Source: a virus
Taxonomy: Duplodnaviria > Caudoviricetes
DNA length: 64,000 nt
Direction: 5' to 3' (one strand)
Virus record (IMG/VR): IMGVR_UViG_3300021978_000001
Span: 1-64,000 of that record
Position 1 is the first letter of the stretch, and each line of letters begins with the position of its first letter. Shown one piece after another: positions 17,051-31,211 of the stretch. Below the pieces are notes generated by a model. That model saw nothing but the letters and a program-made list of their open reading frames with translations, was not told where the DNA came from and did not search any database. Both the position numbers and the translations under genes were made by a program.

Positions 17051-17776
17051 TCACAGAAGCTCGATCTGCGGCGCGGGCTTCACGAGCATCATCCCGGCAC
17101 CGAACGCCTTGCCGCGTCCCAACCCCTCGCGCCACACGGTCATGAAGGCGTCCACGTCCGTCACGCGCACGCGCATCTCGACCTGCACCATGTCCACCAC
17201 GATCTTGCGTCCGCGCTTGCGACCCTCGGAGCGCTGCATGTCGGTCAAACACTCCAGGCGCTCGATGGTGAAGCCGCACTTGTCCGCGCGGGCTTCCATC
17301 CACTCGACCATGAGATCGTGGAGAGGGCGCGCCTCGCGGTCCTCGATGGCGGCGAAGATGCGCTCGTAGGTATCCACGGCGAGGCGCTTGGGCTGGCCAT
17401 CCTCGATCAAGCGCTTGTCTCGTGTCTGGATCGTCGGGTTCACCCAGACGCGGACGTGCAAGGGTTGACCTTCGGTGAGCTGTGGCGTCATCTCTCGCGT
17501 CTGCACCTGGAAGTAGGGCGTCTCGCGGGGAGGCTCTTGAGAGATCATGTAGAAGATCCCACCCGTGGGAGGCGTACACAGGTAAGGGCGCTCACCCCCA
17601 GCCTCGACCTCGAAGAGTTCATAGAGGAGCTGGTGCAAGGCGTAACAGCCCTCGCCGCTCATTTGCATGAGCTTCTTGACACCCTGTTTCGTGTAGCGGC
17701 ACTGCGAGAGGTAGATGGGAGCCTCCTCGGATGCGGGTTTTGGTGGATTGAAGAGTTCTTGTTGTTGTGCAGTCAT
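17051..17776 (-). CDS. cas6: Cas6e (CasE) crRNA endonuclease
   Basis: HQLLYELF, VRVWVNPT and C-terminal G-loop GLGRGKAFGAGMMLV. Confidence 0.95.
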   Translation of the reverse strand: MTAQQQELFNPPKPASEEAPIYLSQCRYTKQGVKKLMQMSGEGCYALHQLLYELFEVEAGGERPYLCTPPTGGIFYMISQEPPRETPYFQVQTREMTPQLTEGQPLHVRVWVNPTIQTRDKRLIEDGQPKRLAVDTYERIFAAIEDREARPLHDLMVEWMEARADKCGFTIERLECLTDMQRSEGRKRGRKIVVDMVQVEMRVRVTDVDAFMTVWREGLGRGKAFGAGMMLVKPAPQIELL

Positions 17777-17788
17777 TGTTCTTCCTTT

Positions 17789-18125
17789 GAATTATCCCCA
17801 CTCATGTGGGGAACGTTTTAAAGAGCCTATCACTCAGCGTCAGGCTGGAATCGAACCATCCCCACAAGGGTGGGGAACACCGATTCGCGCGCCCTTATGT
17901 CCTAGTCCAAGACGGGACCACCCCCGCGTGTGCGGGGAACACTCTTCGGGGAGTGCTTCGAGGTCGCTTGCCGCAGGACCATCCCCGCATGCGCGGGGAA
18001 CACGTAATCCTGACCCAGACGATTCAGTTTGGTCACGGACCATCCCCGCACATGCGGGGAACACGCGACCCTCACCCGAAGCCTTGGAAGGTCGTAAGGA
18101 CCATCCCCGCGTATGCGGGGAACAC
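17789..18125 (-). CRISPR. type I-E array 3 (6 repeats, 5 spacers) between cas7 and cas6
   Basis: repeats at 17789, 17853, 17915, 17976, 18037, 18098. Confidence 0.93.
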
Positions 18126-18180
18126 CCTGTGCCACTTTGTCACGGTTGATGACAGGAGTGACACAGGGGAACGAAGGTCA

Positions 18181-19578
18181 TCACTCGGCAGCAGCCACTT
18201 CCTGCTCGATCTTGCCGAAGATCGACGTCAAGGTCTTCTCCACGAGGGCGTTCAGGTCAGGCGCGACCTCACCACCGGACGCCAGGGGCTCCAGGTCGTG
18301 CGTCTTTGCCCAGGTCGTGACCGCGCGGTGCTCCAGGTTCATGCGCGTGACCACGAGGTCATGGTGACGCTCCAGGCGCTCGATCGCTTCCTCGACGACG
18401 TTGCTCGACTCGACAGGCTGCATGAACGCGTCGGTGTACTGCGTCGGCTGTTCATCGGTCACGGTCGCCAGGACGTAGGAGGCGGGGATGAGGGATGCCA
18501 TCGTGGTCTGCTGACCGCCCGCCTGATACTTGACCATCGACTGCAAGACCGCCGCGACCGCCTCACGCGTCAAGTCCACGACATCACCCGTATCGGTGGT
18601 GCCTTCGACGTACAGCGTGCGCATGAGCTGGTGGAGGTCGATCGCCACGAAGTCGTAGAAGACCGTCGAGGTCATCGTCTTGAAGCCGTTGTGCGCCGAT
18701 CCGGTGTTGGGATCGAACGCATCCGTCGCGGTGAAGAAATCCGAGTCACCCACATACTCGGTCACGCCGATGCTGTGCGCGAAGCGGATGGCGCCATCCG
18801 CAGCAGGCATGTTCGTGTCCGAGGCGATCATGCGCCCGAAGAGCCCGATGTCCACGTTGGGAGAGGCTTGCGCCGTGGCGAAGTCCTTCTGGATCTGTGC
18901 GAAGGTTTCCGCGACCTTCTCATTGTAGACGGTCTCCAGGAGGCTCTTGTACGCCTCTTCCTTGTCCTCGGTCTCTTCGGTCTCGGTCTCCTCGGTGTCA
19001 CTCGTCAGCGCGGTGATGGCGGGCTTGAGGTCTGCCATGCCGTCCACGAGCTTGTCGAGCGCGTCCACCAAGCAGGCTTCCTCACTCTGCTTGACCTTGA
19101 TCGAAGCCGAGAGCGTGCGCCCGTCCTTCTTGACGTCTCCCTTGTCGCTGTGTGCGAAAGCCTCGATGCCTCCCTGGCTGTAGGTGATGCCGTCCTTGAT
19201 GGCAGCCTCGAAGGCGGACTTGCTACACGTCTTCTTCTTGCCAAAGAGCGGCGCGAGCAAGAGCGCTGCGGCGTAGGCGAACACGGGGTCTGCGCCGTCC
19301 TCGATCGCATCCTCGGAGATCTTGTTGAGGATCGTGCGCGTGTTGGTGCTCATGGACTGCTTCTCACGCAAGCCGTCGAAGAACGGACCGTTGCGCATGA
19401 TGCTTTTCCGGCACTGCGAGGATTCGCGAGCACGCAGGACACCTGCAAAGTCAGAGACCTTGGGTTGCCCCTGCTTGTCGCGGTTGCGGTTGCCTGGTGC
19501 GCTCGGGAGCAGCACATGCAAAGCGATCAGCTTTGGCGTGATTGCCAGAAGGGTGTTGAGTGCGTTTTTCTTTGCCAT
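18181..19578 (-). CDS. cas7: Cas7e (CasC) backbone subunit
   Basis: NRNRDKQGQPK...RARESSQCRK, VDIGLFGRMIA, DFFTATD...GSAH motifs; start MAKK chosen from RBS spacing. Confidence 0.93.
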   Translation of the reverse strand: MAKKNALNTLLAITPKLIALHVLLPSAPGNRNRDKQGQPKVSDFAGVLRARESSQCRKSIMRNGPFFDGLREKQSMSTNTRTILNKISEDAIEDGADPVFAYAAALLLAPLFGKKKTCSKSAFEAAIKDGITYSQGGIEAFAHSDKGDVKKDGRTLSASIKVKQSEEACLVDALDKLVDGMADLKPAITALTSDTEETETEETEDKEEAYKSLLETVYNEKVAETFAQIQKDFATAQASPNVDIGLFGRMIASDTNMPAADGAIRFAHSIGVTEYVGDSDFFTATDAFDPNTGSAHNGFKTMTSTVFYDFVAIDLHQLMRTLYVEGTTDTGDVVDLTREAVAAVLQSMVKYQAGGQQTTMASLIPASYVLATVTDEQPTQYTDAFMQPVESSNVVEEAIERLERHHDLVVTRMNLEHRAVTTWAKTHDLEPLASGGEVAPDLNALVEKTLTSIFGKIEQEVAAAE

Positions 19579-19642
19579 TTTCATCTTCCTGTACTCGTAG
19601 TCGTGTGGAGCGGCACACCCCCATGGCGCGCCCTTCTCCGGG

Positions 19643-30310: not shown

Positions 30311-30608
30311 GCTTGAGAACTACCCTCGGTTGAGGCGGGACGGCGGAGATTCTCGTGCGGTCAGGCGTGGTGCTCACGACATAGGAGAGCTTGTCGATCT
30401 TGGCCTTTGCCGCATACATGCTATGGGCATCCTCGAACTCCATAACCACGCAAGGAATCACGTAGAGAGGCTCGCCCTCTTCGAGCTTCCCATGCAAGGT
30501 ATCTGCGAGGACACGTAGGAGCTTGACTTTAGCGAGCACTTCGGCGCGTCCCGCGACCGAGGGTTGCTGGGAGGGCGTCAGGGTGATATACAAGCGGTAC
30601 TGAAACAT
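30303..30608 (-). CDS. small protein, possible subtilase prodomain/I9-like fold
   Basis: LYVIPCVVMEFED...IDKLSYVVSTTPD pattern; resembles 31323-31595. Confidence 0.45.
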   Translation of the reverse strand: MFQYRLYITLTPSQQPSVAGRAEVLAKVKLLRVLADTLHGKLEEGEPLYVIPCVVMEFEDAHSMYAAKAKIDKLSYVVSTTPDRTRISAVPPQPRVVLKPS

Positions 30609-30620
30609 GCGATGTCCTTT

Positions 30621-30905
30621 TCAGATGAGGTGATAGTGCTCGTCCTTGCGAATCTTGGAGATCTGAATCGCAGCACGGTACTTTGCCTCGGGAATGCGCC
30701 CACACGAGGCAATCATTGTACGGCGCCCCTCGGTGTCGGTGAAGTATACCAAAAAGGGAGGGTTCCTCCTCTTCGAGAGGGGAGAACGTTTGATCGCGAA
30801 CGCGCCTTCGGGAGAGGTCGTGTGATAGGACATCCACTCGCCATCATCATGTGATTGCCACTCCAGCTCATTCAAGATGCGGTCAGGGTTTTTTTCCGTT
30901 GTCAT
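30621..30905 (-). CDS. small hypothetical phage protein
   Basis: MTTEKN start with AAAGGAAG RBS right after the array 8 trailer; weakly like the TLTW family. Confidence 0.6.
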   Translation of the reverse strand: MTTEKNPDRILNELEWQSHDDGEWMSYHTTSPEGAFAIKRSPLSKRRNPPFLVYFTDTEGRRTMIASCGRIPEAKYRAAIQISKIRKDEHYHLI

Positions 30906-30919
30906 GTCTTTCTTCCTTT

Positions 30920-31211
30920 GTGAAATCCCCGCATATGCGGGGAATACGAGACTCGTGTACTGCACGAGGAACCGTGTACTGCACGAGGAACGGGGGATCG
31001 GGACCATCCCCACATGCGTGGGGAACACTTCGGACTCCAGTTCGAGGTCTATAACCGGGAGGGACCATCCCCGCATGCGCGGGGAACACATTGCCCTAAC
31101 AACCGTCCCTGAAACTCCCGCAGGACCATCCCCACATGTGTGGGGAACCCAGACGATCCCACACCAGAACTTCCCATACCGGGGGACCATCCCCGCACGC
31201 GCGGGGAATAC
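30920..31211 (-). CRISPR. type I-E array 8 (5 repeats, 4 spacers)
   Basis: repeats at 30920, 31001, 31062, 31123, 31184. Confidence 0.93.

What the first reader, a model, noticed from the sequence alone, without database searches (positions are those of the whole stretch)
17776..30947. Terminal repeats sit directly on ribosome-binding sites: Cas6-generated mRNA 5' ends
Four array trailers end only 12-19 nt before a start codon with the SD in between: cas6 (17789 vs 17776), the HTH gene (23018 vs 23004), the beta-solenoid gene (25473 vs 25453) and the 94-aa gene (30920 vs 30905). Each keeps the hairpin, and each has lost the ATG present in the normal handle (ATGGTCC to ATAATTC, ACACCAC, CTAACCT, ATTTCAC). 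Cas6e cuts at the 3' base of the hairpin leaving an 8-nt handle (established), so these mRNAs would start handle-SD-AUG. Inference: repeats are used as mRNA-processing or translational-control elements, including a feedback loop on cas6 itself (Cas5/Cas7 loading on the handle could occlude the SD).
Basis: partly seen in the sequence, partly recalled or inferred. Interest (0 to 1): 0.82.

Follow-up and report, generated by a model that had tools for sequence, protein, structure and literature searches.

The report
CRISPR hairpins abutting ribosome-binding sites
In a 437-kb phage that carries its own CRISPR system, the last hairpin of seven CRISPR arrays sits directly against the ribosome-binding site of the next gene, and the copy in front of the hairpin-cutting enzyme's own gene (cas6) is kept in four deeply diverged relatives, so the enzyme probably trims or controls these messenger RNAs, its own included, though no RNA data show this yet.

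Summary
At all four sites a degenerate terminal repeat keeps a perfect hairpin, has lost the handle, and is followed by a Shine-Dalgarno sequence and an ATG. The predicted Cas6e cut lies 19-26 nt before the ATG.

The window is the start of a 437-kb phage genome with terminal repeats. A genome-wide scan finds exactly seven such modules, three of them outside the window.

- **Chance:** none of about 55 array ends in actinobacterial genomes with the same repeat looks like this. A "compact genome" null gives P of about 1e-4 to 7e-4.
- **Key new evidence:** the four closest Cas6e lineages (36-44% identity) form one well-supported clade with the window's. All have a repeat-type hairpin 17-25 nt before the cas6 ATG. 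Three of them have no real array there.
- **Outside that clade:** the sister clade and canonical I-E loci lack the hairpin.
- **Enzyme:** Cas6e keeps its catalytic histidine.

Best reading: these hairpins are Cas6e sites in mRNA leaders, with a conserved feedback site on cas6.

Not shown: cleavage, the direction of regulation, and Cas5/Cas7 occlusion. The "lost ATG" is not conserved in relatives.

This scan noted the same idea before on other DNA (e1-2439217, e1-5395237). I found no paper describing it.

The parts
17789..17816 (-). Terminal repeat of array A2. Hairpin core 17795-17813; predicted Cas6e cut between 17796 and 17795; degenerate handle ATAATTC.
17781..17787 (-). Shine-Dalgarno AAGGAAG of cas6e, 4 nt before the ATG at 17776.
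17051..17776 (-). cas6e (241 aa). Catalytic His48 aligns with E. coli CasE His20. It is the only Cas6e in the genome.
17789..18125 (-). Array A2 (6 repeats) between cas7 and cas6. The last spacer is about 36 nt.
23018..23045 (-). Terminal repeat of array A3. Core 23024-23042; handle ACACCAC; SD AAAGGA at 23011-23016. The last spacer is only about 21 nt.
22714..23004 (-). 96-aa XRE-like HTH gene, the first gene of the unit that runs into cas3.
23018..23279 (-). Array A3 (5 repeats). Its leader holds a TTGACG-N17-TAACCT promoter-like site.
25473..25500 (-). Terminal repeat of array A4. Core 25479-25497; C follows GGGG; SD AAAGGA at 25461-25466.
25031..25453 (-). 140-aa repeat-rich (beta-solenoid-like) gene; matches phrog_3163, function unknown.
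30920..30947 (-). Terminal repeat of array A7. Core 30926-30944; handle ATTTCAC; SD AAGGAAG at 30912-30918.
30621..30905 (-). 94-aa gene of unknown function.
30920..31328 (-). Array A7 (5 repeats) plus its leader, which holds a CTTGACA-N17-GGTACC promoter-like site. It is one of five near-identical leaders.
18181..22339 (-). cas3 (19718-22339) and cas7 (18181-19671), upstream of A2. A TTGACA-N18-TATAGT promoter (19708-19679) and a lone repeat hairpin (19649-19667) lie in the cas7 leader.
13651..17018 (-). Contrast case. Array A1 (16644-17018) lies about 70 nt from cas5, with a TTTTAC-N14-TGTGGTAT promoter-like motif in between. Then come cas5 (15832-16574/16605) and the cas8e-cas11 fusion (13651-15828).

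Best explanation
The repeat hairpins that abut ribosome-binding sites are recognition and cleavage sites for the phage's own Cas6e, lying inside mRNA leaders.

Arrays and the genes behind them are transcribed as one RNA. Transcription starts at leader promoters or comes by read-through within the cas operon. Cas6e cuts at the 3' base of the last hairpin. That one cut finishes the last crRNA and releases the downstream ORF as an mRNA. This mRNA would have a short (10-26 nt), unstructured 5' UTR that is independent of the spacers, and a 5'-OH end.

At cas6 the site acts as a feedback element. Free Cas6e, meaning Cas6e not tied up on pre-crRNA hairpins, binds or cuts its own leader 17-25 nt before the AUG and so tunes its own synthesis relative to cas7.

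**Shown:** the anatomy, its excess over chance, conservation of the cas6 site across a deep clade, and an intact catalytic histidine.

**Inferred:** co-transcription (from geometry), cleavage (from Cas6e biochemistry in E. coli and T. thermophilus), and the existence and sign of the regulation.
For: 1. Seven modules of perfect hairpin, SD and ATG exist in the genome, each followed by an ORF of 84-241 aa.
2. In two of them the SD lies inside the former handle (110415, 405613). The functional edge of the repeat is therefore the hairpin base, which is the Cas6e cut site.
3. There is no space for a terminator or full promoter between hairpin and SD. Arrays A5, A6, A7, C1 and C2 have their own TTGACA-type leader promoters.
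4. Under a compaction null, P is about 1e-4 to 7e-4. None of about 55 control array ends has the module.
5. The five lineages with the closest Cas6e all have a repeat-type hairpin 17-25 nt before the cas6 ATG. These are the window (with L012), L013, L014-L017, L018 and L019-L021.
   - L013 and L014 have two hairpins 11-13 nt apart and no spacer.
   - L019 has a single hairpin.
   - L013 has a TTGACA-N17-TATAAG promoter just upstream, so there the hairpins are purely a 5' UTR feature.
6. These five form one clade (support 100/99) with tip branches of 0.6-0.9 substitutions per site. The sister clade with the same gene order and canonical I-E loci lack the hairpin.
7. Strain-level relatives have different spacers but cover the same terminal units: L012 shows the cas6 and HTH junctions unchanged, and X2/X4 contigs run across them.
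8. Cas6e His48 aligns with the catalytic His20 of E. coli CasE.
Against: - There are no RNA data of any kind.
- Three of the seven sites have C instead of A after GGGG. Cas6e tolerance of this is untested.
- The arrangement at genes other than cas6 is not conserved in L014. There the terminal repeats are about 57 nt from the next gene, with a promoter-like motif in between.
- A hairpin next to cas6 could be a recombination-proof remnant of a collapsed array, kept similar to the array repeats by gene conversion.
- Folding shows the SD is free both with and without the hairpin, so no structural switch is evident.
- The gene calls behind the statistics are crude.
Confidence: 0.55

Rival explanations
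1. By-product of genome compaction. The hairpin of a terminal repeat is needed only to mature the last crRNA. The handle behind it is useless, so deletions have brought the next gene's RBS flush against the hairpin. Cas6e may cut there, but nothing is regulated and the adjacency is not selected.
For: - The genome is 91% coding, with a median same-strand gap of about 35 nt.
- Terminal repeats of I-E arrays commonly decay at their 3' end (general knowledge).
- At genes other than cas6 the flush arrangement is not conserved in L014.
- The CAAAGGA-type SD shared by the four window modules also occurs at 13 other genes without hairpins.
Against: - It does not explain the spacer-less hairpins in front of cas6 in L013, L014 and L019.
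- Four of the seven last spacers have abnormal lengths of 21, 22, 24 and 53 nt, so the hairpin there may not serve a normal crRNA.
- 7 of 14 in a 17-nt range is far more than ordinary gene gaps give.
Confidence: 0.25
2. Bind-and-block or Cascade-capture repression. In one version Cas6e binds the hairpin and stays there, sterically blocking 30S access to an SD that lies 2-10 nt away. In the other, Cas5 and Cas7 assemble on the new 5' handle after the cut and cover the SD and AUG.
For: - The SD begins 1-15 nt after the hairpin base in all seven modules.
- Cas6e is known to stay bound to its product hairpin (established for E. coli and T. thermophilus).
- L013 and L018 keep an intact handle in front of the cas6 SD, which could nucleate Cas5/Cas7.
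Against: - After cleavage the hairpin, with Cas6e on it, leaves with the upstream fragment.
- The seven handles in this genome match the consensus poorly, so Cas5 recognition is doubtful.
- No data bear on this.
Confidence: 0.12
3. The hairpin is an RNA element independent of Cas6. It could be a partial intrinsic terminator (attenuator) that lowers cas6 relative to cas7, or a 5'-terminal stem-loop that stabilises an mRNA started from a promoter hidden in the last spacer.
For: - In L014 and L019 the cas6-proximal hairpin is followed by a short T run: TATTTTT and AGATTTTC.
- The last spacer of A2 holds an extended -10-like TGATAGGCT about 15 nt before the hairpin.
- L013 has a clear promoter about 22 nt upstream of its hairpins.
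Against: - In the window no T run follows any of the four hairpins.
- The 21-24 nt last spacers leave no room for a promoter.
- In every lineage the hairpin is that lineage's own CRISPR repeat hairpin, which points to the repeat-binding protein.
- The sigma-70 scan finds nothing in the last spacers.
Confidence: 0.08

Closest known systems
Standalone repeat-like elements and regulatory mini-arrays in cas loci (Shmakov et al. 2023, bioRxiv 10.1101/2023.03.03.530964; CreR / cr-like RNAs)
   Same: These are repeat-derived elements inside cas loci that are proposed to autoregulate cas genes. That paper reports repeat-like sequences enriched near cas6 in type I-B and near cas3 in types I-E, I-D and I-F1.
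   Different: Those elements act in trans as guides. A spacer-like segment partly matches a cas promoter next to a PAM and represses transcription.

Here the element acts in cis on the mRNA leader. It abuts the SD, has a spacer of 0-13 nt in three lineages, and the last spacers have only chance-level matches in the genome. That paper does not mention ribosome-binding sites, translation or start codons (0 occurrences).
Solitary repeat units / RNA anti-CRISPRs (Racr; Camara-Wilpert et al. 2023, PMC10651486)
   Same: Phage-encoded single CRISPR repeats that keep the Cas6-binding hairpin.
   Different: Racrs are decoys against a host system and need no adjacent gene. Here the phage encodes the cognate Cas6e, Cas7, Cas5, Cas8e and Cas3 itself. 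In addition, the hairpins sit at a fixed distance from start codons.
RNase III processing sites between phage T7 early genes, and autoregulation of rnc and rne by cleavage of their own 5' UTR (textbook knowledge, not checked here)
   Same: A hairpin just upstream of an RBS in a polycistronic phage transcript is cut by a structure-specific endoribonuclease. The cut defines the mRNA ends. The nuclease also cuts its own leader as feedback.
   Different: The nuclease there is the host's RNase III or RNase E. Here it would be a phage-encoded CRISPR enzyme, and the sites double as crRNA 3' ends. This is an analogy only; there is no homology.
Synthetic Csy4/Cas6f insulators and Cas6f-based translational repression (for example PMC13478208; Qi et al. 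2012, from memory)
   Same: A Cas6 hairpin placed just before an RBS is used to cut away upstream context or to block translation.
   Different: Those are engineered constructs using type I-F Cas6f. This would be a natural type I-E counterpart.

Membership tests
Degenerate terminal repeat of a type I-E CRISPR array | Same strand as the array and last unit on the side away from the leader | tested here: met
   All seven are the lowest-coordinate unit of a minus-strand array, with the leader at the other end.
Degenerate terminal repeat of a type I-E CRISPR array | Regular 61-nt register with the preceding repeat | tested here: not met
   The periods are 64, 49, 65, 81, 50, 61 and 52 nt. Only one of the seven is in register.
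Degenerate terminal repeat of a type I-E CRISPR array | Hairpin retained while the 3' part has diverged | tested here: met
   Stem pairs are 6 of 6 in all seven, and the handles are unlike ATGGTCC.
Cas6e (Cse3/CasE) substrate | GC-rich stem of 6-7 bp with a tetraloop of the cognate repeat type | tested here: met
   (the hairpin forms in every minimum-free-energy fold).
Cas6e (Cse3/CasE) substrate | A cognate Cas6e with a catalytic histidine is encoded | tested here: met
   PF08798 match at 1.6e-26. It is the single copy in the genome. His48 aligns with CasE His20.
Cas6e (Cse3/CasE) substrate | Cleavage at the 3' base of the stem, in vivo or in vitro | not testable with these tools
cr-like regulatory mini-array (CreR type) | A spacer-like segment with seed complementarity to a cas promoter next to a PAM | tested here: not met
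   The best matches of the seven last spacers are 11-12 nt, which is chance level for 875 kb, and none lies at a promoter of the locus. The L013 and L014 gaps are only 11-13 nt.
Racr / solitary repeat unit | A solitary repeat, not part of an array, directed against a host system | tested here: not met
   The seven are array termini, and the phage itself encodes the matching effector genes. Inhibition itself cannot be tested here.

The most novel reading that the evidence does not exclude
A clade of huge phages has turned the Cas6e and CRISPR-repeat pair into its own mRNA-processing and dosage-control system.

Repeat hairpins would serve as cis-acting cut sites that carve array-gene and cas polycistrons into defined mRNAs. 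The hairpin in the cas6 leader would act as a molecular mimic of the crRNA substrate, in the way ribosomal proteins regulate their own mRNAs. Cas6e synthesis would then track the supply of unprocessed repeats.

In the same genome, repeats are also woven into tRNA operons and tRNA-like RNAs. This suggests the processing role may reach beyond mRNAs.
Probability: 0.35. Interest if true: 0.8.

Novelty: new variant of a known kind. Interest (0 to 1): 0.66.

Why it matters
Repeat-derived regulators of cas genes are so far known as trans-acting guides (tracr-L, CreR, cr-like RNAs) or as decoys (Racr).

A cis-acting repeat hairpin on a ribosome-binding site would be a third mode. In it, Cas6 acts as a general mRNA-processing or translational-control enzyme and senses its own substrate load. 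Synthetic biologists built exactly this device with Csy4, so a natural version would show that evolution got there first.

It would also explain how a phage that scatters about 14 mini-arrays among its genes keeps the genes behind them expressed, whichever spacers happen to lie upstream.

The prediction is sharp. It gives exact 5' ends at named nucleotides, with 5'-OH chemistry, and it can be tested with three plasmids.

Tried and rejected
- **RNA evidence:** no RNA holder listed for the stretch. Reads were laid on DNA contigs of related strains.
- **Rfam:** no family reaches its gathering score in 12900-31500.
- **Public phage and plasmid records:** no match.
- **Close-relative searches:** The search for related loci with Cas6e found nothing in viral contigs. 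The word-based protein search returned only the protein itself. The exhaustive HMMER search was needed.
- **Repeat-pattern scan of viral contigs:** it gave three loci with a single match each, which I did not follow up.
- **SD sequestration:** minimum-free-energy folds leave the SD mostly unpaired both before and after the predicted cut. I dropped the riboswitch-like idea.
- **"ATG purged from the handle":** rejected as evidence. It is expected for any diverged handle, and L013 and L018 keep the ATG.
- **Shared CAAAGGA leader as a sign of a mobile hairpin-RBS cassette:** rejected. The same SD variant heads 13 other genes without hairpins.
- **CreR-like self-targeting by the last spacers:** only chance-level matches.
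- **Sigma-70 promoters in the last spacers:** the scan found none. A weak extended -10 in the last spacer of A2 remains possible.
- **Pfam and PHROG searches of the downstream genes:** no function found except phrog_3163, itself of unknown function. The Atlas search supports only the HTH label.
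Full report
**What the locus is.** The window is the first 64 kb of a 437,490-bp virus record with direct terminal repeats and 57% G+C.

On the minus strand lies a type I-E-like effector operon in an unusual order (Pfam):

| Gene | Coordinates |
|---|---|
| cas3 | 19718-22339 |
| cas7 | 18181-19671 |
| cas6e | 17051-17776 |
| cas5 | 15832-16574/16605 |
| cas8e-cas11 fusion | 13651-15828 |

- The genome has no cas1 and only one cas6e.
- All repeats read on the minus strand in the orientation of the E. 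coli I-E repeat.
- The window holds eight or nine mini-arrays, and the rest of the genome holds more.
- The same 28-nt repeat is common in I-E arrays of Actinobacteria such as Gordonia, Nonomuraea and Streptomyces. The host is therefore probably an actinobacterium.

Reading the four junctions shows a perfect stem, a diverged handle, an SD and an ATG in each. From the base after GGGG to the ATG there are 19 nt (cas6), 20 (HTH gene), 26 (solenoid gene) and 21 (94-aa gene).

Start codons are supported as follows:
- Cas6e homologues have equal N-terminal length.
- An independent gene call on a strain-level contig agrees for the HTH gene.
- The profile match to the solenoid protein fits that start.

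**It extends beyond the window.** A genome-wide scan found three more terminal repeats of the same kind, at 110415, 405613 and 408215, with 15, 10 and 22 nt to the ATG and ORFs of 84, 85 and 123 aa.
- In two of these the SD lies inside the former handle.
- A separate scan for any C-rich/G-rich hairpin followed by an SD and an ORF found only these seven.
- The other trailers (A0, A1 before cas5, A6) have a TTTTAC-N14-TGTGGTAT promoter-like motif between hairpin and gene.

**More than chance.**
- With crude gene calls the genome is 91% coding. Only 9-12% of same-strand gaps are 10-26 nt long.
- Treating the hairpin base as if it were the end of an upstream gene, 7 or more of 14 has P of about 1e-4 to 7e-4.
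- As a control, about 55 array ends in 39 actinobacterial loci with the same repeat show no hairpin-SD-ATG module, judged by eye.

**Co-transcription.**
- Five arrays (A5, A6, A7 and two outside the window) share a leader with a CTTGACA-N17-GGTACC promoter-like site.
- A3 has TTGACG-N17-TAACCT.
- A0, A1 and A2 follow cas genes directly, with a short leader ending in GTGACAAGATGTCTCAGA.
- Between the terminal hairpin and the SD there is no room for a terminator or a promoter. The sigma-70 scan finds nothing in the last spacers.
- The downstream ORFs must therefore be translated from RNAs that carry the hairpin.

**The key comparative result.** An exhaustive HMMER search found the nearest Cas6e proteins at 44, 39, 36 and 37% identity. 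Their contigs show the same phage-type gene order, on contigs of up to 373 kb.

| Lineage | What lies between cas7 and cas6 | Hairpin base to cas6 ATG |
|---|---|---|
| L014-L017 | Two repeat-type hairpins 13 nt apart in a 76-nt gap | 17 nt, including GGAG |
| L013 | TTGACA-N17-TATAAG promoter, then two hairpins 11 nt apart with an intact handle | 25 nt |
| L018 | An array whose last repeat is intact | 22 nt, SD directly behind the repeat |
| L019-L021 | A single hairpin | about 22 nt |

- The strain-level contig L012 has different spacers but an identical terminal unit.
- In a Cas6e tree the five lineages form one clade (100/99) with tip branches of 0.6-0.9 substitutions per site.
- The sister pair P0006/P0007, which has the same gene order, and three further Cas6e hits (P0008 and P0010 in canonical I-E loci, P0009 on a 910-nt contig) have no such hairpin.
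- At that depth neutral intergenic DNA cannot be aligned, and the flanks here indeed cannot be. A perfect hairpin of each lineage's own repeat type, kept at a fixed distance from the cas6 start, therefore points to selection.
- In three lineages no spacer is present, so the hairpin is not there to mature a crRNA.

**Competence of the enzyme.** The phage Cas6e aligns with E. coli CasE so that its His48, in the motif YALHQ, matches the catalytic His20. The glycine-rich C-terminal loop is also present.

**What is not supported.**
- No listed holder of this DNA is on record as RNA.
- Folding shows the hairpin forms and the SD stays free before and after the predicted cut, so there is no obvious structural switch.
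- The loss of ATG from the handle is trivial and is not conserved.
- The handles in this genome are too diverged for confident Cas5 recognition.
- The flush arrangement at genes other than cas6 is not seen in L014.
- The last spacers do not target the locus, so this is not a CreR-type guide.

**Mechanism proposed.** One cut by Cas6e at the base of the last hairpin both finishes the last crRNA and frees the next ORF with a short, constant leader. This insulates translation from whichever spacers lie upstream.

At cas6 the site gives feedback. Cas6e is a single-turnover enzyme that stays on its product, which is established for I-E. Only Cas6e in excess of the pre-crRNA hairpins would therefore act on its own leader.

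Whether the cut stabilises the mRNA (5'-OH end), destabilises it, or merely uncouples cas6 from cas7 (needed at roughly 6:1 in Cascade) cannot be told from sequence.

**Literature.** The nearest descriptions are guide-type repeat-like regulators in cas loci (bioRxiv 10.1101/2023.03.03.530964) and RNA anti-CRISPRs (PMC10651486). Neither places a repeat on an RBS. Five full-text searches found no paper on natural mRNA 5' ends made by Cas6, or on Cas6 autoregulation through its leader. Engineered Cas6f devices do this.

Earlier notes of this scan report the same idea for cas6 in two other genomes (e1-2439217, e1-5395237) and for the 405613 site of this genome (e1-5379209). They are leads, not evidence.

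**Verdict.** It is a new variant of repeat-derived cas regulation, and it is experimentally sharp.

Noticed in passing
G000 128009-128086 (outside the window, minus strand): A tRNA-shaped gene has a near-copy of the CRISPR repeat where the anticodon arm should be. The hairpin plus TGGTCC tail keeps pairing through compensatory CACCAC/GTGGTG changes and has a 4-nt loop. ARAGORN calls it an odd tRNA-Gln with the anticodon at position 28. An earlier scan note, e1-5379116, says the same.
   Followed up: partly
G000 148861-148879 and about 70 nt downstream (outside the window): A repeat with an intact handle is followed directly by an anticodon-like arm, a T arm and an acceptor 3' strand. ARAGORN calls no tRNA there. 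It may be a repeat-tRNA chimera or an attachment-site relic.
   Followed up: partly
G000 126944-127754 (outside the window): Mini-arrays are embedded in the tRNA operon. The order is tRNA-Ile, 44 nt, repeat, 88 nt, repeat, 39 nt, tRNA-Met. Two further repeats end 43 nt before tRNA-Val.
   Followed up: partly
window 16606-16640, 28620-28655, 13020-13060; L014 3118-3147, 12398-12427, 13804-13833: A recurring TTTTAC-N14-TGTGGTAT(A) motif, probably a phage promoter, lies between the terminal repeat and the next gene wherever the hairpin is not flush with the SD.
   Followed up: partly
window 19649-19708: A near-consensus TTGACA-N18-TATAGT promoter is followed at once by a lone repeat-like hairpin in the cas7 leader, 64 nt before the cas7 ATG. 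The relative L014 has a promoter there but a hairpin of a different kind.
   Followed up: partly
window 27087-27890: Contigs of related strains in three of the four metagenome runs laid join 27087 to 27890 and skip 802 nt, and none of the four runs covers 27122-27735. The 258-aa gene at 27084-27860 therefore looks like an insertion specific to this genome.
   Followed up: no
window 30951-30990: The 53-nt last spacer of array A7 contains a 19-nt tandem duplication (GTTCCTCGTGCAGTACACG twice). A related strain's contig departs from the window at 30972.
   Followed up: no
window 17789-18125 and 23018-23279 versus L012: A strain with 100% identical Cas6e has different leader-proximal spacers and fewer repeats in the arrays before cas6 and before the HTH gene. 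Spacers therefore turn over although the phage has no cas1.
   Followed up: partly
window 13651-15828; L014 9549-11756; L019 7164-9442: The cas8e-cas11 fusion is shared with the L014 lineage (735 aa). In L019, L022 and L023 the two are separate genes, so the fusion arose within the clade.
   Followed up: no
window 25629-25888: Arrays A5 and A4 are separated by 260 nt holding a small ORF. The last repeat of A5 has an intact handle and lies 42 nt before that ORF's ATG, with only a weak SD.
   Followed up: no
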